Assembly: GCA_965113315.1 (NCBI GenBank)
Contig: OZ220367.1
Origin: Podarcis vaucheri
Lineage: Eukaryota
Direction: 5' to 3' (one strand)
Length of the DNA: 64,000 nt
Shown: positions 28,038-64,000 of the stretch, one piece after another
Numbering within the stretch: position 1 is the stretch's first letter
Layout: each line of letters starts with the position of its first letter
Position numbers and translations under genes: made by a program
The notes under the pieces: model-generated
The model's input: the letters and a program-made list of their open reading frames with translations, nothing else
The model's database searches: none
Told to the model about the DNA's origin: nothing

Positions 28038-28263
28038 CAGTGGTACCTCGGGTTACAGACGCTTCAGGTTACAGACTCCGCTAACCCAGAAATAGTACCT
28101 CGGGTTAAGAACTTTGCTTCAGGATGAGAACAGAAATCACGCGGTGGCGGCACGGCAGCAGAGGGAGGCCCCATTAGCTAAAGTGGTGCTTCAGGTTAAG
28201 AACAGTTTCAGGTTAAGAACGGACCTCCAGAACAAATTAAGTTCTTAACCCGAGGTACCACTG
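28038..28263. mobile_element. Tc1/mariner-type MITE, CAGTGGTACC family, copy 3 (opposite orientation to copies 1, 2 and 4)
   Basis: TIRs CAGTGGTACCTCGGGTTA / TAACCCGAGGTACCACTG with TA TSD. Confidence 0.92.
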
Positions 28264-28629
28264 TACTGGAAGAATGTTGTTATTTGCAGAAAAGCATGAA
28301 GAAACTAAGGATAAACTCTACAAAAGGAGGCAACTTTCCCAAAAAAAATTTTAAATGCACATAAGGGGACTTAAAGAAACCATTTCGTCTTGCATTGTAG
28401 GTAGGAAAACTAAATTCTGCATAGTATTTGTCACCTGCAATAGAAATACATGAATGTAGTAGAGCTGTCTGTTTTTAGACTTCACGTTCTGGGTGGCAGG
28501 GAAGCAATATTGGATAAACGGAAGAAATTCTTTGCATATTTCAGCAGCTTGGATTTAATTGACATACCAGTGAAAAAAACAAATCAAATGGAATTTAAAT
28601 TGTACTTCTCTGATTCTGTTTGGTTTCAG

Positions 28630-29441
28630 GTTATGGTCATACCTACCCTGTGACAAGACCTGGGAAATACTTGTGTATGCTGTATGCATTATTTGGCATC
28701 CCTCTAATGTTCTTAGTTCTCACTGATATGGGAGACATCCTCTCATCTATATTATCCACATCTTACAATAAAGGGAGACAACTACAGTCAAAAATATTAG
28801 CCAGACTTTCTCTTGCATCCTGCTGGAAGAAGAAGAGAGACTCAAAATCTGGATCCTTAGCCCTCAGGCAAACCAAAGTAGTCCTTCATGAACCTTTAAA
28901 CATCAAAGAAGTGCTAAGACATCATTCTTCACTGAAAATAAAGCCTTGCCAAAGTCGAAATGCTGAAATATTTGAACAACTTATTGCCAGGGAGAACCAG
29001 TTCCTTGCACCACCGAGACCTGGCAAGTTTGAACGATGGAGTTCATGCCCTGAACTGGATTCAGGGGCAATGATGAACCACATGATTGACAATATTGACA
29101 ATATAGGGAAAAGAGTAGAAAAGCTGGATGTGCCATTTTGGTTGATGATGCTCATTGTCTTTGTATACATTTCCTGCGCTGCCGCCATCCTTCCGCGCTG
29201 GGAAAGCCGTTTGAATTTCGAGGGCGCTTTCTATTTCTGCTTCATCACCTTAACAACAATTGGCTTTGGTGACGTTGCCCTGGAACACCCCAACTTCTTT
29301 TTGTTTTTGTCATTTTATATTGTGGTCGGCATGGAAATTGTCATCATCGCTTTCAAGCTGGGACAAGACAGGCTCATTTCTCTGTACAAAAAGTTGATCT
29401 GCTGCATCGGACGAAAAAATACCCCACCAAAAATGGTATGA
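28630..29441 (+). CDS. KCNK18: TRESK coding exon 3 (GYG filter, TM2, long cytoplasmic loop, TM3, GFG filter, TM4)
   Basis: Acceptor TTTCAG|GT completes TVGYG. Contains SCPEL, LDVP, FYFCFITLTTIGFGD and a short C-terminus. Exons total 220+144+812 = 1176 nt = 391 aa plus stop. Confidence 0.96.
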
Positions 29442-50312: not shown

Positions 50313-50389
50313 CAGTGGTACCTTGGGTTACATATGCTTCAGGTTACATACGCTTCAGGTTACAGACTCCGCTAACCCAGAAATAGTAC
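50313..50389. mobile_element. CAGTGGTACC MITE copy 5, left part (interrupted by the LTR retrotransposon)
   Basis: TA-CAGTGGTACC...CCCAGAAATAGTAC. It continues at 56961 collinearly with the intact copy at 28038. Confidence 0.93.
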
Positions 50390-51146
50390 TGTCAGAGCTG
50401 CTACCAGGTCCCAGCTCACATAGGACCACGCCACACAGCGTCCACTTTAAAAGAGTCTTTATTGAGTTACAGGTTTCATTTCCGAACTGCAGCGTGCAGC
50501 TCTACACCTTCTGCCCTAGGTCGGCGAAGACCCATCTGAGTCCCCGCCTCTTGCACACCAGCTTAATACCCTAGCCTTGCTCCACCTCCTTCGCCTCTCC
50601 CTACGTCTCTGGGTCCTTCTGCCCTCCTGGGACTCCTCCCTTCTACTCTCCTCTGACGCTGACCCCCCTGATCCTTCCGCTTCCTTTCGGCGGGCTTTGG
50701 GACCTGGCTCACTCTCCGGGCTGCTTACTGCTCCAGCTTCCGCTGCATTTGAACTTGGCGCGCGCGCCCAACTCTCTACTTTCCTCTTGACCGTTGCCTC
50801 GCTCTCTGAGGAGGGCGTGACCACCCCTGACTCGTGCCCTCCCTCCTGCTGACGGCCTCCGGAACCCGATGCCTGGCTGCCTTCCTCCCTGCTGCTCTCA
50901 GTCTTGAGCGTGGGTCCCGACTTCCAGCTGCTGCTCTCTGAATCTCCTCTGTTCCCTTCCTCCTGGGGTGTCCCCCCGGATCCCCCCCTTGCTCTGCTCA
51001 CTGGGGCTCCCTTTTGGGAGTCCTCTGACTCACTGCTTAGGCTTGGAGATCTCGGGTCGTCATCATCACTCATTCTCCCTTCGGCTTCCTCCCCCTCGCT
51101 CTCTGTTTCCACCCTTCTCTGCTTCTCTGCTTCTGAACCCCTGACA
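50390..51146 (-). repeat. 3' LTR (757 bp)
   Basis: Direct repeat of 56199-56955 with no difference found by eye. Minus-strand TATTAA at 50568-50563 and AATAAA at 50463-50458. Confidence 0.97.
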
Positions 51147-54100
51147 TCCATCCCCCCCTCGAAGCCCCCCCTTCCCCCCTCCCCGCTGTCAGGTGTGGGT
51201 GCTGGGTGCTCCATCATCATGGGAGGGAATGCTGGATACAGGTCGCTCCCCGTGGGTGGCCGCCAACTGAAGACCTCCGAGTCTTCCCCCTCGCGGTCGT
51301 CGACGTTGACTTGTTGCTCTTCCATCTCTGTACCGCCGTGCTCGAACCCGAGGTCCTCCCCGAACACGTCCATGTCAGTCTCTGCGTCGGTCGCTCGACC
51401 TGGCATCTCCAGCCACTTCCTGCGCCATTGCTCCTCTGGTCGATCGTCCCACCAATACGAGTTGCCTGATGCCGAACCTGCCGGTGAACCTTCTGGGGAA
51501 CGGGTGCTCCGTGCGGGTTCCCCTTCTGAGTCGAATCCATGGAACGTGCTGGAAGAAAGTGTGGGTGTGAACAACCAGTCGTCGAAGAAGCTCGCTGGCA
51601 TGGGTTTGTGTGGGAAGAGGGCATGAAACTCGTCCTTGAGCAGGGGTTCCTCCAAAGCGTAGTCTGGTACCCAGGTATTGGCGCTGGCCCGGGTGCCCTC
51701 TCTGGCTAAGAGGTATTCGACTCCCTCTTCCCCCCATCTGGAGTCCAAAATCTCCGTGACCTCGTTGATGTGGTCCTGGTGCTTCACCTCCCGCGTCTCC
51801 GTCCGTTCCCGGAGCGGACTTGGCGCCGTCCCTGGCTCCTGGAACCTGTGAGGTGCCTTGTAGGGAGTGAGCACCGACCTGTGGAACACCGGATGCATTC
51901 TGGAACCCTCCGGCAGCGCCAGTCGGAAGGCTACCGGGTTGATCTGCGCTTCGACTTGGTACGGACCGATCTGCTTGTGCCCCAACTTCTTCTTGGCAAG
52001 TGACCTGGTCGGCACTGCGTGGGCTGCCAACCAGACCCAGTCTCCCACTTGGATCACTTCGCCAACCCGCCTGTGCTTGTCAGCTTGCACCTTGTAGGCG
52101 TGCTTAGCTAGCTCCAGCTGCCGTCTGAGTTGATCGTGGACCGCCTGCAGCTCTGACGCGAACGCGTCCGCCGTCTGTGGTTCTCCTTCCCCCACTCTCT
52201 CCAGTCCCGGGAAGGTTCTGGGATTCCTCCCATTGTTGGCAAAGAACGGCGTCACTCCTGTGGACACGTGCTTCGTGTTGTTGTAAGCGAACTCGGCTAG
52301 CGGCAGGTAATCCACCCACGTCGCAGGCTGTTGATTGGCATAGCATCTCAGGTACTGCTGCATGATGGCATTGACCCTCTCTGCTTGCCCGTTGGTCTGC
52401 GGGTGTCTTGCTGATGCCAGATTGACCTTGACATTTAGAAAACCCATCAGCTTCTGCCAGAAAGACGAGATGAACTGGCGTCCGCGGTCGGACAGGATAG
52501 ACCGTGGCAGGCCATGCACTTTGAACACGTGATCTATGAACAGTTTGGCGGTTTGTTCCGCCGTGGCCACCTTCGCACACGGAATGAAATGTGCCATCTT
52601 GGTGAACAAGTCCACCACCACTAGCACAGCTGTCTTGCCTCTCGAGCTGGGTAGATCCGTCACAAAGTCCAGGGCCACCCTCTCCCACGGTTCAAACGGT
52701 GTTTGCAGCGGTTCTAACAGTCCCGCCGGTGGTCTGTGTACCGGCTTGGCCCTCTGGCAGGTGTCGCACCTCGCGACGTAGTCCGCGACCTCTCCTCTCA
52801 GCCTGGGCCACCAGAAGTCTCTCGCGACTAATTCCATCGTTTTCTCTGTGCCAAAGTGACCGGCCGTGGGTGCGTCGTGCAACTGTTGCAATACCTTGGC
52901 GCGAAGGTCGTCTCCTGGTACATAGACAGCCCCTTTGCGTAGGAGCAAGCCGTCCCGCACCTGGAACTCGTCCGTGGTAGCCGTGCCTCTGAGCAGTTCC
53001 GCCATCTTGTCTTGCGCGAATGAGTCGTCCCGCAATGCACGTCGCACCGCATCCAGGTCTACTGTAGCTGAGGCACACGCCCACGCCGTCGGTGCGAAGA
53101 TGTGCATGGCCGCCGCTGGCGTCACCTCTTCTAGGTATTGCGGTTTTCGGGACAGTGCATCCGCCATGATGTTGGTGTCGCCTGGGACGTACTCTATTCG
53201 GAAATTGAAGTCAGCAAAGAACTCCGCCCAACGTATCTGCCTCTGGTTCAGGAACTGAGCCGTGCGCCAGTGCTCCAGATTCTTGTGGTCCGTGCAGACC
53301 TGCACCGTGTGCTTGGCGCCGATTAGGAAGTGCCTCCACGCCTTGAAAGCTGCATGAATGGCCAGCAACTCCCTGTCCCAGATGGTGTAGTTCTGCTCCG
53401 ACTTGCTGAGCTTTCTGGAGTAGAACGCTCCCGGCCGCCACACCCCCTGCGGGTCTCGCTGCAGCAGGACAGCTCCCACGGCTCTGTCTGACGCGTCTGT
53501 CTCTACCCTCAACGGTTTACTGGGGTCGATATGCAGCAGTTGCTTCTCCGATGCGAAGAGATGCTTGAGCGCTTGAAAGGACTGTTCCGCCTGCTCCGTC
53601 CAGATGAATTTCTTTTTTTTGGAGCTGAGCGTGTCCGTAATTGCTGCCGTCTGCATCGCGAACCCCTTGATAAACTTGCGATAGAAGTTGGCGAAGCCGA
53701 CAAACCGCTGGACCTCCTTCCGGTTGCGCGGGCTCTTCCAATCCAATACCGCACGAACCTTGGTGCTGTCCATGGCTATCCCCTTGTCCGACAACTTGTA
53801 TCCCAGGAAATCCACCTCCGTCGTGTCGAACTGGCACTTCTCCAGCTTGGCGTACAGTCTATGTTGTTGCAACCTGCTGAGCACCTCCCTCACGTCTCGG
53901 TCGTGAGCTTGCTGCGAGTCAGAGAAAATCAGGATGTCATCCAGGAAGCAGACGCATGTCTTGTAGAGGAGTCCCTCCAACACGTGATGCATAAAAGCTT
54001 GAAAACAGTGAGAGCCATTTTGTAATCCAAAGGGCATAACTCTGTATTCGTAGGTGCCCAGCGGTGTGAACATGGCCGTCTTCCACTCATCGCCCTCCCG

Positions 54101-55066
54101 CATGCGGATGAGATTGTACGCCCCTCGCAGGTCCAACTTGGTGAACACGCGTCCCTTGCGCACCGTCGCGAGGAGGTCGTCAATCCTGGGCATGGGGTAA
54201 TCAGACGGTTTGGTCATCTGGTTCAAAAGGCGGTAGTCCACAACGAGTCTTTTTTGGGGCGTGTCTTTCTTTTTCACGAAGAAAACGGGACTGCCCCCCA
54301 CTGCCTTGGACTCTCTGATGAAGCCACGCTCCAGATTATGCTCGATGAACTGTTTGAGTTCCTGCATTTCATCTTCAGACATGGAGTATAGCCGCCCCTT
54401 CGGCAGCGTCGCCCCCGGTAGGAGGTCAATCTTGCAGTCATATGGCCGGTGAGGGGGTAGCTTGTCCGCCTCCTTCTCGCAGAAGACCTCCAAAAAGCTC
54501 GCGTATTTGTGGGGGACCGCTTGCAACGTTCCCAACTGCAGTTGTGATTCCTCCTCCTCTCCCTCCCGTCGGGGCAGGATGCAGTGTTCTGCGCAATAAG
54601 AGGAGCCGAAGATCAGTTGTCTCTGGTACCAAGCCAGTGTCGGACTGTGCCTGTCCAGCCAACTCATGCCCAACACAATGGGCGTGTCCGACAGTTGGGT
54701 GACATTAAAACTGATGACTTCCCTGTGGTTGCCAAGGCGCATCACCATCGGTGGCGTCTGCTTCACCACCTGCCCCCCTAGCAACTCTCTGCCATCCACT
54801 GTGACGACTTGCAGGGGCAGAGTGGCAGGCAATAGCTGTATAGCGTGCTGCTCCACAAAGCTCTGCGCTATAAAGTCTGCGTTGCTTCCAGAATCCACAG
54901 AAAGCGGCACTTCGATAGTGACGCCGTCGGGTAGCTGGAGAGATGCTGTGAGCTGCACTACTGGTTTGGGTGGGAGGGGATCCGTGGGTTGCAATATCGC
55001 TGGGGACTGCTTCACAGATGCGTCTGGCTGGGCCCCAGTGCCTCCGTCTCCAGCCAGACATCGTCG
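50516..55066 (-). CDS. pol: Pol polyprotein (protease, RT, RNase H, integrase, degenerate chromodomain, long acidic C-terminal extension), expressed as Gag-Pol by -1 frameshift
   Basis: Protease VDSGS. RT KLDLRGAY, MPFGL, FLDD. RNase H TDAS, RELLAI, TDHKNL, ADALSR. Integrase H-H-C-C (HDAPTAGH/CDTC), D-D-E (ALDF, SDRG, QAER) and GPY. Open frame 55189-50516 with no stops. Confidence 0.96.
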   Translation of the reverse strand, partial: RRCLAGDGGTGAQPDASVKQSPAILQPTDPLPPKPVVQLTASLQLPDGVTIEVPLSVDSGSNADFIAQSFVEQHAIQLLPATLPLQVVTVDGRELLGGQVVKQTPPMVMRLGNHREVISFNVTQLSDTPIVLGMSWLDRHSPTLAWYQRQLIFGSSYCAEHCILPRREGEEEESQLQLGTLQAVPHKYASFLEVFCEKEADKLPPHRPYDCKIDLLPGATLPKGRLYSMSEDEMQELKQFIEHNLERGFIRESKAVGGSPVFFVKKKDTPQKRLVVDYRLLNQMTKPSDYPMPRIDDLLATVRKGRVFTKLDLRGAYNLIRMREGDEWKTAMFTPLGTYEYRVMPFGLQNGSHCFQAFMHHVLEGLLYKTCVCFLDDILIFSDSQQAHDRDVREVLSRLQQHRLYAKLEKCQFDTTEVDFLGYKLSDKGIAMDSTKVRAVLDWKSPRNRKEVQRFVGFANFYRKFIKGFAMQTAAITDTLSSKKKKFIWTEQAEQSFQALKHLFASEKQLLHIDPSKPLRVETDASDRAVGAVLLQRDPQGVWRPGAFYSRKLSKSEQNYTIWDRELLAIHAAFKAWRHFLIGAKHTVQVCTDHKNLEHWRTAQFLNQRQIRWAEFFADFNFRIEYVPGDTNIMADALSRKPQYLEEVTPAAAMHIFAPTAWACASATVDLDAVRRALRDDSFAQDKMAELLRGTATTDEFQVRDGLLLRKGAVYVPGDDLRAKVLQQLHDAPTAGHFGTEKTMELVARDFWWPRLRGEVADYVARCDTCQRAKPVHRPPAGLLEPLQTPFEPWERVALDFVTDLPSSRGKTAVLVVVDLFTKMAHFIPCAKVATAEQTAKLFIDHVFKVHGLPRSILSDRGRQFISSFWQKLMGFLNVKVNLASARHPQTNGQAERVNAIMQQYLRCYANQQPATWVDYLPLAEFAYNNTKHVSTGVTPFFANNGRNPRTFPGLERVGEGEPQTADAFASELQAVHDQLRRQLELAKHAYKVQADKHRRVGEVIQVGDWVWLAAHAVPTRSLAKKKLGHKQIGPYQVEAQINPVAFRLALPEGSRMHPVFHRSVLTPYKAPHRFQEPGTAPSPLRERTETREVKHQDHINEVTEILDSRWGEEGVEYLLAREGTRASANTWVPDYALEEPLLKDEFHALFPHKPMPASFFDDWLFTPTLSSSTFHGFDSEGEPARSTRSPEGSPAGSASGNSYWWDDRPEEQWRRKWLEMPGRATDAETDMDVFGEDLGFEHGGTEMEEQQVNVDDREGEDSEVFSWRPPTGSDLYPAFPPMMMEHPAPTPDSGEGGRGGFEGGMDVRGSEAEKQRRVETESEGEEAEGRMSDDDDPRSPSLSSESEDSQKGAPVSRARGGSGGTPQEEGNRGDSESSSWKSGPTLKTESSREEGSQASGSGGRQQEGGHESGVVTPSSESEATVKRKVESWARAPSSNAAEAGAVSSPESEPGPKARRKEAEGSGGSASEESRREESQEGRRTQRRRERRRRWSKARVLSWCARGGDSDGSSPT
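51147..51160 (-). other. Polypurine tract
   Basis: GAGGGGGGGATGGA immediately precedes the TGTCAG start of the 3' LTR on the minus strand. Confidence 0.9.
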
Positions 55067-55072
55067 TTTCCC
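55000..55072 (-). other. -1 programmed ribosomal frameshift signal (GGGAAAC plus predicted H-type pseudoknot)
   Basis: G GGA AAC lies in the gag frame at 55072-55066, and pol is in the -1 frame. Stem GTCTGGCTGG/CCAGCCAGAC; loop CTGGGG can pair with downstream CCCCAG. Confidence 0.85.
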
Positions 55073-56088
55073 TGCTGTGGTTCTCCTTGCTGCGTTGCTG
55101 CAGTCACCATTGCTGAGGCTGCAGTGTGCTTGTGGAGCCTCCGGGGACACTCCTTCGCCAAATGGCCTGGATCCTCGCAGATGTAACACTTCCTGTTCCC
55201 TCTAGGAGGCTTCGCTTTCACTGCTGCCGGTGCTAGGGCTCTGGCTGCTGACTGAGCCCTTGCACCTCCAACCTCCATCGGTTCCCCTCCCCCTCCTGGC
55301 GGAGGTGTGGATTGCGCACGCGCTGCTTCCCTCGGAACGAAAGAGAAACTTCTCGCTGCTTCGCGCCCTCCACGTCCTTCATCTCTGCACCATGGACGTT
55401 CTTCCAGCCTCACCCCCACAGTCAGCGCCCTTTGGACCACCTCCTGCGTGCTTCGGGGCCTCTCCCCCCTTGCAATTTCATCCTTAACCGCAGAACTTAG
55501 ACCCTCCCAGAAGAGGTCTCTGACAGGGGGCGAATCCCGATCCCATTCTAAAGCACTGACCAGCGCAAAAAATCGGGCGTGATACTGCCGGACGCTCGCC
55601 CTCCCTTGTTTTAGTCCATGAATCTCCCGTCTGGCAAGATCCACATCGATAGTAGACAAAAAACACGCATCCATCGCTTTGATAAAGGCATCTGCATTCT
55701 GAAGCGCCGGATCTTTATCCCTCCACAAATTGCGCAGCCAGGCTTTGGCATCCCCATGCAAATGGGACAATATGAACCCCACCTTCTCTTCCTCATCTCT
55801 AAAGTCTTTTGCCAGCAGTTGCAGTGCGCACATTACGTCTGCTCTAAAATTAGGGTACTGTTGCAAAGTCCCATCGAAATGAGCCACAAGCCCTCCTGCT
55901 CTCCGTGCCAATCCCACGCCCTCCGGTCTGGGTCCCGGTTGCCCTTGCTTAACAAGCATTTCAAACCTGGCGTGTAGGTCTCTGTAGGCGGCTGTAGTCT
56001 CCTCCTCCCGTTTCTTGGAAGCCAATACCTCTGAGGACAACTGGGTCACTGCCTCTTGCAGCGCGGAGATCCTCTGTTCTTCCGTCAT
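55012..56088 (-). CDS. gag: Gag (coiled coil, retrotransposon capsid, CCHC zinc knuckle), 358 aa from the first ATG
   Basis: ATG at 56088 (MTEEQRISALQ). Motifs FDG, LKQG..SV..Y...F, F..GL and EPMEVG. CYICEDPGHLAKEC fits CX2CX4HX4C. Confidence 0.95.
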   Translation of the reverse strand: MTEEQRISALQEAVTQLSSEVLASKKREEETTAAYRDLHARFEMLVKQGQPGPRPEGVGLARRAGGLVAHFDGTLQQYPNFRADVMCALQLLAKDFRDEEEKVGFILSHLHGDAKAWLRNLWRDKDPALQNADAFIKAMDACFLSTIDVDLARREIHGLKQGRASVRQYHARFFALVSALEWDRDSPPVRDLFWEGLSSAVKDEIARGERPRSTQEVVQRALTVGVRLEERPWCRDEGRGGREAARSFSFVPREAARAQSTPPPGGGGEPMEVGGARAQSAARALAPAAVKAKPPRGNRKCYICEDPGHLAKECPRRLHKHTAASAMVTAATQQGEPQQGNDDVWLETEALGPSQTHL

Positions 56089-56185: not shown

Positions 56186-56196
56186 AGATGGGACTT
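56186..56196 (-). other. Primer-binding site, self-priming type (not tRNA-complementary)
   Basis: AAGTCCCATCT starts 2 nt after the 5' LTR and lacks TGG. It is complementary (10/11) to AGATGGGTCTT, located 31 nt downstream of the LTR TATA-like box. Confidence 0.7.
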
Positions 56197-56198
56197 AC

Positions 56199-56955
56199 TG
56201 TCAGAGCTGCTACCAGGTCCCAGCTCACATAGGACCACGCCACACAGCGTCCACTTTAAAAGAGTCTTTATTGAGTTACAGGTTTCATTTCCGAACTGCA
56301 GCGTGCAGCTCTACACCTTCTGCCCTAGGTCGGCGAAGACCCATCTGAGTCCCCGCCTCTTGCACACCAGCTTAATACCCTAGCCTTGCTCCACCTCCTT
56401 CGCCTCTCCCTACGTCTCTGGGTCCTTCTGCCCTCCTGGGACTCCTCCCTTCTACTCTCCTCTGACGCTGACCCCCCTGATCCTTCCGCTTCCTTTCGGC
56501 GGGCTTTGGGACCTGGCTCACTCTCCGGGCTGCTTACTGCTCCAGCTTCCGCTGCATTTGAACTTGGCGCGCGCGCCCAACTCTCTACTTTCCTCTTGAC
56601 CGTTGCCTCGCTCTCTGAGGAGGGCGTGACCACCCCTGACTCGTGCCCTCCCTCCTGCTGACGGCCTCCGGAACCCGATGCCTGGCTGCCTTCCTCCCTG
56701 CTGCTCTCAGTCTTGAGCGTGGGTCCCGACTTCCAGCTGCTGCTCTCTGAATCTCCTCTGTTCCCTTCCTCCTGGGGTGTCCCCCCGGATCCCCCCCTTG
56801 CTCTGCTCACTGGGGCTCCCTTTTGGGAGTCCTCTGACTCACTGCTTAGGCTTGGAGATCTCGGGTCGTCATCATCACTCATTCTCCCTTCGGCTTCCTC
56901 CCCCTCGCTCTCTGTTTCCACCCTTCTCTGCTTCTCTGCTTCTGAACCCCTGACA
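56199..56955 (-). repeat. 5' LTR (757 bp)
   Basis: Direct repeat of 50390-51146. TATTAA at 56377-56372; predicted TSS about 56346. Confidence 0.97.
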
Positions 56956-56960
56956 AGTAC

Positions 56961-57125
56961 CTTGGGTTAAGAACTTTACTTCAGGATGAGAACAGAAATC
57001 GTGTTCCGGCAGCACAGCGGCAGTGGGAGGCCCCGTTAGCTAAAGTGGTGTTTCAGGTTAAGAACAGTTTCAGGTTAAGAACGGACCTCCAGAACGAATT
57101 AAGTACTTAACCCGAAGTACCACTG
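56961..57125. mobile_element. CAGTGGTACC MITE copy 5, right part
   Basis: CTTGGGTTAAGAACTTT...AGTACCACTG-TA completes the MITE begun at 50313. Confidence 0.93.
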
Positions 57126-60100
57126 TATTTCACAAATCAACAAACATTTTCATAATAATTGCTTTGCATTAGCCTTTCCTCAAAAAAGCTTTACAGTCAT
57201 AGTTCCAGTAGATTAAAACTACGTTCTAATGTAGATAGAAGCAAATCTGCATTTGTAAGTTAATATTAAATGTTCACAAAATGTTCACCTAAATAAGGTG
57301 AGGCTTAAAATTGACTACTTTGAAAACAGTAGTAATTCAGTGCTTGAATTGTTATGCTTAATTTTGACTTAATTTAGGAGGATGCTAGAAAGTGTGATAT
57401 GTTAAGGATGAATGAAACACACAGAAAGAACTCTGCTGGACACAAGCAAAATAATCTGATGATTATTCTAAGTTCACTCGTGTTGATCACAACCTGTTCT
57501 ACAAGGGCCCAAGACATTATTCAAGGGAAATTTAGCAGTTAGGATCACATGTAGTCGCAGTTGGTACAGTCACAGTGCTTCCAAGTTTGAGTAACCAGAT
57601 CAGCACCTGAGAGAGCTCCCAGTGAGCCAAACCTGGCAGAAGTTTCTTCCCTCATTGGATAACATGGGAAGATGCTAACACAGCAAGTTGTTGTTCTCCT
57701 TGGATTTTAATGGCATTTCCAGGCTATAACATTATTACTCCTCTATTCTAATTGTTCATAAATCCTACAACAAGGAGTTGCCTGGTTTTGTATTCTTAAG
57801 CTTTTGTGAAGCTGAGGAGAGGGGTTGTGCGGTTGGTAGCTCATCCTCTGACAATGTGGTTATGTATTTTGGCTGGGACAGTGCAAAAGAGGGTCCCAAA
57901 GGATCCCACTTTGAGACAACACCCCAAACCTTCTGCTTGTCTGCAACATCCCTCATGCCTTGTAAGAACCCAGAGCCAGGGGTTGTGACACACATAAATT
58001 ACGGTACTATAATTTCTCAAAATTCCATTCAGGTTAGACCCTAAATTTTGTTGCACATTCTCAGGGCTGCAGAGTATTATATATATATTCTTAAAATTGC
58101 TTCACTTTATAATATAATTTCATCTGAAGCCACACTGCATCATGCTTTTTGTAGTTTTGAACTTCCTTTTCCTTTGACTCTGAATGGAGTAGAGGTCACT
58201 TGGGAGTAAACATTCAATATTTTAAGTGTATCTTAAGTGCAAAAATGTGGTGCTGTTGGGATGGACAAAATTATGGGATGGACTCGAGGCAAAGGACTGA
58301 AAATATTACAATAAATATGGCATGCTGGTAGCTCTTATATTGAAAATCCTAAATTACCAAAATCTTCCAGAATGAACATACAGAGTTTCCTCAAAAAACT
58401 ATGGATTTCAGTAAGGCTACATGAATTTCCAGGCAAGCATACTGATGCAGCCATAGTATTTGAGTATGATTTTACTATTGATGGATTTTGGCTGTGGTCG
58501 TATTATTTGAAATTTAGTTTACAATTATAATATAAATATTGTGCAGAGAGAATAACCAAATGTTGCCATATTGTTCCACAGATATTGACCTCTGGATAAT
58601 GAAATGATAACTTTGGAATGATTTCTATAGGTCCCTTGCAAGAAAAAGAGAGTGAGATGTGAGTAGCATCCAGGAGCTGATTGGCAGACCTTTGTCTTTT
58701 CTGTGAGCAGACATCTATTTTCTTCCTTCTCATTTAAAGATTCTAGTCATAACTGTGACTCAAAGCCTAATGATCTTGGAGATCTTGGCTGAACTGTGCC
58801 CATCAGAGGAGGCTGTTAACAGAAGTACTTTAAAATACTTCATCTATATTTCTTTTGTTTTAGCATCAAACGTTAAATGAACCACATCAAATAAGAACAA
58901 AATAGCACTTCTGCCCACTTAATGGGCTAACTGCAGTGCAAAGTGCCCAGGGCAGCATGCAGTTACGCTTCAAATACATCTTCACTCACTGATAAGATCC
59001 AGACCAGACTATAATGAAATTAACAGTGTATATCACTGGCCCTAGCACACATACACACTTCCTAAAGCATCAGATTAAAACAAGGGCAGTATCCAACTAA
59101 GTCCTACTTAGAGTAGACCATTGAAATTAACGTACCTACATTAATCCTACCCATAGATTTCAGTGAACCTTTTCAGATAATTATTGTCATGTGGGCAGGG
59201 TAGGGGGGAAGAGCTATTTTCCCTCAGACTTACAAACAAAACGAATGCACACTATGGAAGGAGAGTGGAGGGAAAAGGTAGAGGAGAGAGATCAATGTGA
59301 AAAGATCAGAATTTCAGCAGAAAGTTAAAGTATATGCCCTGACTGGAAATGAAGTTGTATGGCTGCCCCCAAAACCTTTGCAGGCACAAATATTAATAAT
59401 AATAACAGTAATAATACATTTATTGTCATTGTACAACCTGTGTACAATGAAATGAAATTAAATCATATTGAAAGGGGGATTGTACATGACTGTCCCGATA
59501 GTATGCCTTGTGAGCACAGATAACCATGAATGCACAATAAAAAGAACACCCTTAATTCACATGGATACTTGTGAATAAACAGTTTGTCCAAATGTCCATG
59601 CATGTTCTGCTGTGGCAATGGAAACCTGTCCAAATTGACCTTTAGATGTTACCACAATGCAAGTATTAATAATATATCTGTGCACAAATAAGTACTCTCA
59701 GAAACAATTTCAACCATTTGTGCCTAAGGTACTGACAAGATCCCTTTTAATATATATTGGCTTTTTGTATCTGGCGGTGAGAATGTCAGCTCCTTGGAGG
59801 CAAGGAGGGCTTGAGAGACTAAGAAAGCCGACGATTTAAACTTGAGCAATACTAAATAGCCATTGTCAACATGGACTGCAGTGAGATGGGGCAAAGAATA
59901 GCAGTCTACAGATCAGAAGGCCTTTCATGTCACGATGTTCGCAGTACAGTATATTCTGTCACAAGCAAATTTGTTCCTCTCCATTCTATCTACAAAACAT
60001 GTGGAAATACAACTGAAGGCTAATTCTGCTTTGATGTTCTATGAAAGCCCAATTCCTTTTTCTTCTGATGCAATATTTCTATTGATGTTTCATTAAAATG

Positions 60101-61636: not shown

Positions 61637-62499
61637 CCAGCTGAAGAAAAGCTCTGATCATAATTATTATCATAGGTATGCCAATGATAATGATTATGTT
61701 CAAGCAAAGAATAGTGAACTATGTCTACCAATGGCCTGAGAGAATCGGCTGTGAGTCTTGCTGGACCTGCCCCCTTCCTTGTGCTACATTACTTGTGTGG
61801 TGGACAAATGATCAAATCAGCTGTGGAACCTGCTGAAAGAGATTAGTCAAATGTTGACTTCTTTTAGAAATTAGAATTCAATTATTTGTTTGGAGGGGGA
61901 AGAATAACCATGAGATTCTCCTTTCCTCACTGCCATCTGAAAACTGTTCCTAAATATATTTTGTTGGGAGTAAAATCAGTATTTTTTCTTTATTATTTTA
62001 CTTCCAAGGAATTATATGTAGGATTCGGCTGCAACCAGTACCCTGCAAGAGTCCTTGGGTAAGTGAATATATATAATGGTGTAGAAATAAACTGGCTAGC
62101 ACATTTGCAAAGCTAAGCAGGGTCTGGTATGGTTTCAAATTGGATTGGAGACTGTGTGTTGAGATTCGGGGGTTGGGCTAGATGACCCTTGGATTCCCTT
62201 CTAGCTCTATGACTCAGTGACTCCATATATAGTCATTATAATTCAGGGTGATCCCTTATAAAGCATAATAATAATATAATAATAATAATAATATATTATT
62301 TATACCCCACCCATCTGGCTAGGTTTCCCCAGCTACAATGAATGCCAACAGGGAAACATAGGAGTTTAATTTGTTGTTGTTGTTGCTGTTGTTGTTGTTT
62401 AAAAACTTATGCTATTTTAAAGGTCCCTGTGGTTTAACAAAGCTGCTAAAGGACCCATGCCGTTTCTAAATATTTACACATTTGTCTATAACAAAGGAA

Positions 62500-63260
62500 G
62501 GTGCATCTGCTATTAGCAGCAGCGTGGAGGAGGCGAGGAGTGTCAGTATCCTGCTCAATGAGTCCCAGCTGGAGACGCCAGAAAAACCCAGCTGGCGGAG
62601 TGAGTTCTTTACACATCGCGCCCCTAGTATTTATCCCTCGCCTCGCAGCTGCAACAGGGACCAAGTGCACGGCAGCAAGCGATGGTTTTGCTGCTTTCTT
62701 CCCGGACCTCCAAGCCAGGCGCTTGCCAAAGTCTGGCAGAGCCGCCTGAGTAGAGCATCCTCCGGGAGCTCCTTGCAAGCGGGGAGCATTTGGTCCAAGG
62801 CAGCGGCGAGGTGACGCGGGGAGTAAAAGCGGGGGCTGGGTGGAGGTGGGGCTGGGAGAGACGCTTGAGTCGAGCTGGGTGCCTGCTTGGAACAAGCAGC
62901 GCCCCAGAGGAGTCTATTGGGAGCGATAAGGATCTGGCGTGACGTCAGAGAGGAGTCTGGTAAGTGGAGCTGCCCAGAGGCGCTGGGAGCTCTTTCGAGT
63001 TCTGCTGGAGAGGACGAGGCAGCGTTTTGCTGAGGCGGAGGGCAGCAGGCAAGCAGCGGCTGGGGGAGCCTCGCCCGCCCAGGAGGGTAAGCGAAGCCCC
63101 TGGCGCGTGGGGAGGGAATTTAGGCGGGAAAAGGGAGCAGGCGAGAGAAAAGGCGGGGAAAAAGTGAGGGCGAGTGGCGCGCCCAGAGGGAGAGGCGTGG
63201 GGTGGGGCTGGGAGTGGGGGGCGCTCACGTGGAGAAGTGAGTGAGGGGGGCGGGCAGGAA
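62500..63260 (+). promoter_or_regulatory. SLC18A2: CpG-island promoter with a perfect CRE; probable SLC18A2 (VMAT2) promoter and non-coding first exon
   Basis: GC/CpG-rich. TGACGTCA at 62940-62947, GC boxes, and a candidate donor G|GTAAGC at 63087. Identity is inferred from synteny downstream of KCNK18 and from the known CRE in mammalian VMAT2 promoters; no coding sequence is in the window. Confidence 0.5.
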
Positions 63261-64000
63261 AAAAGGGGTCACGAATGTGAGGTATACTTGGGAGGGAAAC
63301 GTCGAGATTTAGGCCTTGCAAAGCAGGGGTGGGGGGAAGCTGTGCCCATGGCTGGACTGGAACACCCATCTCCCTCGACATTTATTTATTCATTGCGCAC
63401 GCGGTTCTCTTCCTCCTTCAATCCCCACAACAACCCTGTGAGGCAGGGACTGACCCAGGTTCACTCTCTATCCATTACGCCACACATGCTGGATGGGGTG
63501 GCTGATGGGTTTTGGAGTCCAGTAGCATCTGTAGGGCTGCAGCTGCCCCACCCCTTCTGTGTGGGATACTGAGATGGAGCAGGGAAAGTATCTAGTTGGG
63601 CAATGAAGGTGACAAAATACTCAAACAAGTATTGAAAAAAGGGCAATAGAAGTGGTCTAGAAGCGTTAATCCCAGTAACCTTGGTTGCTGTGGCTGGCTC
63701 AAAAATTGATACTGGCACCTGTGGGTTATTAGCTTTGTAAATTGGCTGCTGTTTTTTGAAGTCCTTAAAGTAAAGGGGTGAATAGTGTGTTTTCCGCACT
63801 AAGGTCAGACCTGAAATTGGGCGAGAGTTCTTCTGAGCATGTACAAAGAACATTTGGCTCACTGCTGGACTTTCAAAGCATCTAGGTTTAGAAAGCTGCT
63901 TGTAGGTTAGAGAGAGTGGCTTCCAAGCTGGTTTAATTGTTGGCAGTTATATTTCAGCACTTTGTAGGAGAGGACAGTGGGGGAAAACAGGGAGCACAAA

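What the first reader, a model, noticed from the sequence alone, without database searches (positions are those of the whole stretch)
50516..51622. Pol reads through the PPT and the entire U3: a protein-coding LTR giving integrase a ~370-aa tail
Seen: after the chromodomain (ending about 51623) the pol frame stays open for about 158 codons to the LTR edge. It runs through the PPT and then about 209 more codons inside the 3' LTR. It stops (TAG, 50518-50516) only past the TATA-like box and predicted TSS, about 50 nt before AATAAA. The TATTAA box itself is coding (RVLSW). The LTR-encoded part is Ser/Glu/Gly-rich and low-complexity, with CK2-like sites (SSESED, SDDDD) and a basic cluster RRTQRRRERRRR near its end. 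Known: Ty3/Gypsy pol normally ends before or near the PPT. U3-overlapping ORFs are familiar from retroviruses (HIV nef, MMTV sag, foamy bel/bet), but as separate accessory genes. Inference: here U3 doubles as promoter and as coding sequence for a disordered integrase tail with a possible NLS, so every solo LTR would also scatter a ~200-codon open frame. I cannot tell without a search whether this has been described.
Basis: partly seen in the sequence, partly recalled or inferred. Interest (0 to 1): 0.85.

Follow-up and report, generated by a model that had tools for sequence, protein, structure and literature searches.

The report
Lizard retrotransposon promoter encodes integrase tail
In this young lizard jumping gene, the promoter half of the end repeat is also protein-coding DNA kept by selection, adding a long, predicted floppy tail to the integrase that likely grips host chromatin proteins to guide where new copies land.

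Summary
Confirmed. The window holds an intact, very young Ty3/Gypsy chromovirus (757-bp identical LTRs, 5-bp target duplication). Pol stays open 368 codons past the chromodomain, 209 inside the 3' LTR, and stops 20 nt into R. Composition does not explain this: nine subfamilies in the genome end at the same stop, and U3 shows dN/dS 0.35 in the pol frame (RT 0.05), against 0.85-1.6 in the other two sense frames. Two more distant lizard families (one with 60% pol identity) also read into their own unrelated LTRs. Pol entering the LTR is known from plant CRM chromoviruses, so this is a variant. What is new: it is in a vertebrate and spans the whole U3, and the tail carries a helix-linker-FxGF motif like those that bind LEDGF/HRP2, textbook-like in sister families whose chromodomain has also decayed. 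The tail ends in an arginine cluster (RRSARL in one family). Translation, binding and targeting are untested. Many older copies have slipped frame in G runs, so the distal tail may not be essential. Solo LTRs carry the frame, but upstream of their own inferred start site.

The parts
56199..56955 (-). 5' LTR, 757 bp, TGT...ACA, identical to the 3' LTR
56956..56960 (-). 5-bp target-site duplication, upstream copy (other copy 50385-50389)
56186..56196 (-). [quoted passage not shown]
   Evidence: 22 of 34 full-length copies pair 11/11, 11 pair 10/11, 1 pairs 9/11, with compensatory changes between subfamilies
55012..56088 (-). gag (Retrotrans_gag, Ty3_capsid, CCHC knuckle)
55066..55072 (-). G GGA AAC heptamer in the gag/pol overlap; likely -1 frameshift site (same heptamer as PEG10, recalled)
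   Evidence: pol lies in the -1 frame of gag
50516..55201 (-). pol frame: protease, RT, RNase H, integrase, SH3/GPY, chromodomain, 368-aa tail
51623..51763 (-). Degenerate chromodomain (first cage aromatic and the W-x-G-Y residues replaced; cage positions recalled)
51147..51622 (-). Tail before the LTR, 159 codons, acidic, dN/dS 0.28
51524..51589 (-). Helix-linker-FxGF motif (FFDDWLF TPTLSSST FHGF DSE), like TND-interacting motifs
51413..51460 (-). Conserved aromatic motif SYWWDD..EEQWRRKW; aligns with the helix of the second such motif in sister families
51151..51160 (-). Polypurine tract, read in frame as EGG(M); further G runs 51165-51185
50390..51146 (-). 3' LTR; 50538-51146 is U3 and is entirely coding (dN/dS 0.35)
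51008..51043 (-). Conserved SLSSESEDSQKG block in U3 (CK2-type sites, predicted), with silent variation at its invariant residues
50570..50620 (-). Arginine cluster RRTQRRRERRRRWSKAR (net +10 in a 30-residue block)
50563..50568 (-). TATA-like box, 31 nt before the start of R, inside the coding frame
50527..50537 (-). First 11 nt of R (inferred start site and self-primer), also coding (DGSS)
50516..50518 (-). pol stop codon; TAG or TAA in this column in 70 of 72 aligned copies
50458..50463 (-). AATAAA polyadenylation signal

Best explanation
This self-priming Ty3/Gypsy chromovirus keeps its pol frame open through the polypurine tract, all of U3, the TATA box and into R under purifying selection, so its integrase likely carries a 368-residue, predicted disordered tail that probably tethers the integration complex to host chromatin in place of a decayed chromodomain. 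Shown: the frame, the shared stop, the selection and the motif conservation. Inferred steps: the genomic RNA runs from R of the 5' LTR to the poly(A) site in the 3' LTR, so it holds the whole frame; a -1 frameshift makes Gag-Pol; protease releases integrase with the tail attached; the helix-linker-FxGF motif, once its serines and threonines are phosphorylated, binds the TND (IBD) domain of LEDGF or HRP2; the terminal arginine cluster serves as nuclear-import signal and/or nucleosome acidic-patch anchor. U3 can afford this because its fixed DNA signals (PPT, att end, TATA, 11-nt primer) are short and a disordered protein tolerates most changes.
For: Same stop column in 70 of 72 unique copies taken regardless of frame state; U3+R frames of 209-234 codons in nine subfamilies that differ by up to 35% in DNA. 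Codon model, one natural copy per subfamily: omega 0.346 in U3 (2dlnL 125 against omega 1), 0.275 before the LTR, 0.13 SH3+chromo, 0.06 integrase, 0.05 RT-RNase H. Pooled dN/dS 0.29 in frame against 1.59 and 0.85 in the other sense frames. Gap-free A-versus-B pairs: third-position excess p 3e-4 to 1e-6, also without CpG sites. 44 of 59 invariant U3/R residues vary silently. All large U3 indels between subfamilies are multiples of three; all 6 length classes after the stop are not. Family H (60% RT-IN identity, 430-bp LTR) reads about 110 codons through U3, TATA and primer, U3 omega 0.475; family J reads about 115 codons into its LTR and ends in RRSARL, the HMGN acidic-patch motif (PMC12487698, passages). 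FxGF intact with a variable middle residue in 66 of 72 copies; family H and P0183 carry helix-acidic linker-FxGF motifs matching JPO2, PogZ and MLL1 (definition PMC9987994). 12 of the 13 tails with FxGF among 103 scored relatives belong to this clade. Families with FxGF have the decayed cage; J, Anolis and Vipera relatives keep the cage and lack it.
Against: No RNA, ribosome or peptide data. Only 10 of 20 full-length copies with an intact core keep the whole tail (set partly picked for long frames), and only 2 of 22 anchored copies of one old subfamily do, those two being duplicates. Some shifts sit in both LTRs (L127, L129, L142, L150) and two near-identical copies share one truncation (L181, L182), so truncated templates were copied. 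4 of 11 modal length differences in the tail are 1-nt shifts. Close B-versus-B pairs give weak signal (p 0.008-0.08). In this family the FxGF linker is Ser/Thr-rich rather than acidic and the helix hydrophobe is one position off the human pattern. The cage/FxGF link rests on one clade. The only target bias seen points to TTAGGG arrays, not gene bodies.
Confidence: 0.6

Rival explanations
1. The tail is translated and selected, but works mainly as nuclear-import signal plus acidic spacer, or is cut off by the protease as a separate accessory protein; it does not choose sites through LEDGF/HRP2.
For: Arginine cluster at the end of all three families; NLS candidates reported in CRM integrases (PMC3605345 section 15); moderate omega and length-tolerant middle.
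Against: Does not explain the invariant FxGF with free middle residue or the doubled textbook motifs of family H.
Confidence: 0.25
2. The tail tethers integrase to telomere-type chromatin (TTAGGG arrays) rather than to transcribed genes.
For: 13 of 120 flanks of this family are TTAGGG arrays against 0 of 86 for families H and J (Fisher p 0.0008), across at least five subfamilies.
Against: Found after the fact: the fresh sample alone gives 2 of 40 against 0 of 40 (p 0.49). The array pentamers GTTAG/CTAAC resemble the family's general 5-bp target preference. 107 of 120 flanks are not arrays.
Confidence: 0.08
3. Only openness of the frame is selected (for example a short 3' UTR protecting the RNA from decay); the amino acids do not matter.
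For: Stop lies about 50 nt before AATAAA in this family and near the primer in family H.
Against: omega 0.35 and invariant blocks with silent variation show selection on residues; family J stops before its TATA box.
Confidence: 0.05
4. A by-product of G/A-rich, T-poor promoter DNA.
For: U3 is 10% T and 41% G.
Against: Shuffles p 0.0004; other frames carry stops; frame-specific dN/dS; same layout in unrelated LTRs.
Confidence: 0.02

Closest known systems
Plant CRM group A chromoviruses (CR motif) and Beta vulgaris Bingo1-4 and 7; PMC3059260, PMC3605345
   Same: The polyprotein frame extends past the PPT into the 3' LTR, and the LTR-encoded part is held to be the targeting domain. In Bingo the chromodomain precedes the PPT, as here.
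   Different: Plants; CRM elements use a tRNA-Met primer and TGATG/CATCA ends. Here a reptile, self-priming, no family match for the tail, the frame covers all of U3 with TATA and primer, and a decayed chromodomain plus FxGF motif precede it. I did not see in the passages read how far the plant frames reach.
Tf1/Sushi group chromoviruses (V-clade: Sushi-ichi, Amn-ichi/ni/san); PMC6317226, PMC3601003
   Same: Domain order, GPY/F motif, chromodomain, self-priming, TGT..ACA LTRs.
   Different: 77 of 103 scored relatives end within 80 residues of the chromodomain, and Sushi U3 is described as T-rich, here 10% T. No named reference element was in my tree.
TND-interacting motifs of JPO2, PogZ, MLL1 binding LEDGF/HRP2; lentiviral integrase tethering; PMC9987994
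   Same: Order helix, 8-16 residue linker, FxGF, acidic tail; serines open to CK2.
   Different: Described in host proteins; I found no report of such a motif in a retrotransposon integrase (listing only). HIV integrase binds the same domain with its folded core, not this motif (recalled). Binding here is untested.
Retroviral U3-overlapping genes (HIV nef, MMTV sag, foamy bel/bet; recalled)
   Same: U3 DNA serves as both promoter and coding sequence.
   Different: Those are separate accessory genes on their own mRNAs; here the frame is continuous with integrase.

Membership tests
Ty3/Gypsy chromovirus, Tf1/Sushi group | gag then PR-RT-RNase H-IN order between two LTRs with a target duplication | tested here: met
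Ty3/Gypsy chromovirus, Tf1/Sushi group | GPY/F module and chromodomain at the integrase C-terminus | tested here: met
   SH3_Tf2-1 E 1e-15; Chromo E 2.6e-4, below cut-off and with cage residues replaced
Ty3/Gypsy chromovirus, Tf1/Sushi group | Self-priming: PBS complementary to the 5' end of the transcript | tested here: met
   33 of 34 full-length copies pair at 10 or 11 of 11 positions, with compensatory changes; group feature per PMC6317226
Ty3/Gypsy chromovirus, Tf1/Sushi group | Placement with named V-clade elements in an RT tree | not tested
   No named reference sequences on hand; the integrase tree (quick method) only shows the long-tail families as one clade
CRM group A chromovirus | [quoted passage not shown] | tested here: met
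CRM group A chromovirus | tRNA-Met PBS and TGATG/CATCA termini | tested here: not met
   Self-priming PBS and TGTCA..TGACA ends
CRM group A chromovirus | CR motif and centromeric location | not tested
   No CR sequence was aligned; the tail has no Pfam match; no centromere map
TND-interacting motif (LEDGF/HRP2 type) | FxGF | tested here: met
   66 of 72 copies, seven different middle residues; 10 of 11 rows for each of two motifs in family H
TND-interacting motif (LEDGF/HRP2 type) | Amphipathic helix followed by an acidic linker of 8-16 residues | tested here: inconclusive
   Linker is 8 residues but Ser/Thr-rich in this family; clearly acidic in family H and P0183. Pattern in shuffled tails 0.05-0.24%, pattern chosen after seeing it
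TND-interacting motif (LEDGF/HRP2 type) | Binds a TND domain | not testable with these tools
   Needs a pull-down or calorimetry
Retroviral U3 accessory gene (nef/sag type) | Separate ORF with its own start, not fused to pol | tested here: not met
   Frame is continuous with integrase; definition recalled

The most novel reading that the evidence does not exclude
A squamate clade of LTR retrotransposons turned its whole U3 promoter into integrase-coding sequence and replaced a decayed chromodomain with a mimic of the host TND-interacting motif, so it reaches LEDGF/HRP2 chromatin by a route independent of HIV integrase; sister lineages use an LTR-encoded HMGN-like RRSARL anchor instead.
Probability: 0.4. 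Interest if true: 0.85.

Novelty: new variant of a known kind. Interest (0 to 1): 0.68.

Why it matters
How vertebrate Ty3/Gypsy elements choose their integration sites is largely open. Here a young, high-copy family offers named, short, testable motifs and two named host candidates. It also shows that a promoter, an att end, a PPT and a self-primer can all sit inside one selected reading frame, so U3 variation in these elements cannot be read as purely regulatory. If the FxGF motif binds LEDGF/HRP2, retrotransposons and lentiviruses reached the same host tether by different molecular routes.

Tried and rejected
Complex prediction of the lizard LEDGF domain with the motif peptide: no verdict (score 0.21, mark 0.34; alignments not used), no evidence either way. 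AlphaFold2 on the 9-row alignment: pLDDT 32, even for folded domains, unusable. Sequencing runs: no RNA holder listed, so no reads were laid. ESM Atlas: only chromodomain clusters under 0.8. Pfam: nothing for the tail. Codon-model values (tree part), 36 and 37 included one row (L093) out of register by a codon; found and replaced; the pairwise counts did not use that row. Row L051 is out of frame upstream and inflates the integrase-core value. The P0183 family was not found in G000 with one query. Anolis and Vipera tails were seen as proteins only; their LTR edges were not checked on DNA. The tree is the quick version. Rows dropped: 21 loci without a detected LTR end and 26 near-identical subfamily-A loci before the 72-copy alignment; 19 of 122 proteins with no chromodomain found by pattern. 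The antisense frame 50853-51626 has no Pfam match and was taken as a shadow of the sense codons. Literature searches that found no description of this layout in vertebrates; Repbase, GyDB and subscription papers were not searchable, and no supplements were read.

Full report
1. Observation. The minus strand carries a complete LTR retrotransposon from 56955 to 50390, with identical 757-bp LTRs and a 5-bp target duplication. gag (56088-55012) overlaps pol in the -1 frame; pol is open from 55201 to 50516 with protease, RT, RNase H, integrase, an SH3/GPY module and a weak chromodomain ending at 51623. After it the frame runs 159 codons to the LTR and 209 codons inside it. U3 is 41% G and 10% T, yet dinucleotide shuffles expect 6.9 stops in the tail and give none in 0.04% of 5000 trials; the other two sense frames have 8 and 11.

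2. The family. 32 of the 40 best hits to an 801-nt query are 100% identical, so the subfamily is very young. The nearest named proteins are from Podarcis lizards, so the host is likely a lacertid. Protein searches with diverged relatives gave older subfamilies, up to 35% apart in DNA. The PBS matches no tRNA end that I tested for; it is complementary to 11 nt in the LTR, 31 nt after the TATA-like box, at 11 of 11 positions in 22 of 34 full-length copies and 10 of 11 in 11 more, with both sides changing together between subfamilies. That is the self-priming of the Tf1/Sushi group (PMC6317226, passages) and puts the start of R at 50537. U3 (51146-50538) is therefore wholly coding and the stop lies 20 nt into R, inside the genomic RNA.

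3. Selection. In 72 unique copies aligned as DNA regardless of frame, 70 have TAG or TAA in the stop column. One natural open copy from each of nine subfamilies gives omega 0.346 for U3 (2dlnL 125 against 1; both halves alike), 0.275 for the part before the LTR, 0.13 for SH3 plus chromodomain, 0.06 for integrase and 0.05 for RT-RNase H (which replaces earlier runs with one mis-registered row). Pooled dN/dS is 0.29 in frame and 1.59 and 0.85 in the other sense frames. Protein-guided alignment could bias this, so I used A-versus-B pairs, which need no gaps: differences by codon position 31/31/63, 26/30/69 and 29/29/68, and 47-57 silent codon changes against 22 expected. B-versus-B pairs are weaker (p 0.008-0.08). 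Of 59 invariant U3/R residues 44 vary silently, which argues against selection on the DNA alone. Large indels between subfamilies keep the frame (U3+R 209 to 234 codons); all six length classes after the stop break it.

4. Results against. Four of 11 modal length differences in the tail are 1-nt shifts. Only 10 of 20 core-intact full-length copies keep the whole tail, and 2 of 22 anchored copies of one old subfamily. These breaks are a slippage effect: 50 of 52 within-subfamily 1-2 nt indels lie next to a run of four or more like bases, against 16% of positions, and shifted groups still show third-position excess and no stops downstream in the old frame. But some shifts sit in both LTRs and two near-identical copies share one truncation, so truncated templates were copied, in trans or because the distal tail is dispensable. 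No expression data were available.

5. A clade trait. A profile search found distant relatives with long tails. Family H in the same genome (60% RT-IN identity, LTR about 430 bp, unrelated U3) reads about 110 codons through U3, TATA and primer, with U3 omega 0.475 in 11 open copies. Family J reads about 115 codons into its LTR and stops just before the TATA box. Anolis and Vipera proteins have tails of 110-125 residues behind a PPT-like motif, not checked on DNA. Of 103 relatives with a located chromodomain, 77 end within 80 residues. The long-tail families group together in a quick integrase tree.

6. Mechanism. The tail is acidic, low in complexity and has no family match; disorder is predicted from composition. 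Its best conserved part, just behind the chromodomain, is FFDDWLF-TPTLSSST-FxGF-DSE, with FxGF intact in 66 of 72 copies and seven middle residues. That is the order helix, linker, FxGF that defines motifs binding the TND domain of LEDGF and HRP2 (PMC9987994, passages; JPO2, PogZ and MLL1 sequences). The linker here is Ser/Thr-rich and would need phosphorylation to be acidic; family H has two copies with fully acidic linkers and P0183 one. The host genome encodes both readers. Families with the motif have lost chromodomain cage residues; J, Anolis and Vipera keep them and lack the motif (cage positions recalled; one clade only). All tails end in an arginine cluster, in J the HMGN motif RRSARL that binds the nucleosome acidic patch (PMC12487698, passages). 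CK2 phosphorylates Ty1 integrase, without effect on mobility when the sites were removed (PMC9673352, abstract). I therefore read the tail as a chromatin tether, with import signal or cleaved accessory protein as main rival. The only target bias I saw is towards TTAGGG arrays (13 of 120 flanks against 0 of 86; fresh sample 2 of 40 against 0 of 40), which the LEDGF reading does not predict.

7. Known and new. Pol reaching into the 3' LTR and encoding the targeting domain is described for plant CRM group A and some Beta elements (PMC3059260, passages and section 7; PMC3605345, passages and section 15). The element is not a CRM member (self-priming, other termini). Sushi LTRs are described as T-rich in U3 (PMC3601003, passages). 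Searches found no account of a vertebrate case, of full-U3 read-through or of a TND-type motif in a retrotransposon; repeat databases, subscription papers and supplements were not seen. The solo-LTR idea is true of the sequence only: the frame lies upstream of the LTR's inferred start site.

8. Verdict. Real, selected and clade-wide; a new variant of a known layout, with an untested but specific mechanism. Interest 0.68.

Noticed in passing
flanks of L002, L005, L007, L008, L021, L034, L036, L040, L051, L069, L096, L284, L315: Copies of this family inserted inside (TTAGGG)n arrays: 13 of 120 flanks against 0 of 86 in two other families; fresh sample alone 2 of 40 against 0 of 40.
   Followed up: partly
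G000 contig C41 and contig ends: 13 of the 40 best hits lie on C41 (2.6% of the genome); 7 of 20 others lie within 2 Mb of a contig end, 0.9 expected. The order of tied hits is arbitrary, so this is a lead only.
   Followed up: partly
L268-L273 (family J): A second young family whose pol reads about 115 codons into the LTR, ends in RRSARL and stops just before the TATA box; intact chromodomain cage; self-priming PBS. Anolis relatives end in RRSARI.
   Followed up: partly
window 28614-29438 +: Exon of a two-pore potassium channel gene (Ion_trans_2, two stretches, E 1e-21). Whether the element lies within this gene was not determined.
   Followed up: no
window 56945-57127 and 28083-28265: The element sits inside a short dispersed repeat that recurs at 88% identity; it looks like a mariner-type MITE (recalled, untested).
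   Followed up: no
window 55066-55072 -: GGGAAAC heptamer in the gag/pol overlap, likely the -1 frameshift site.
   Followed up: no
window 62446-63946 -: GC-rich stretch with four stop-free frames of 155-162 codons and no Pfam match.
   Followed up: no
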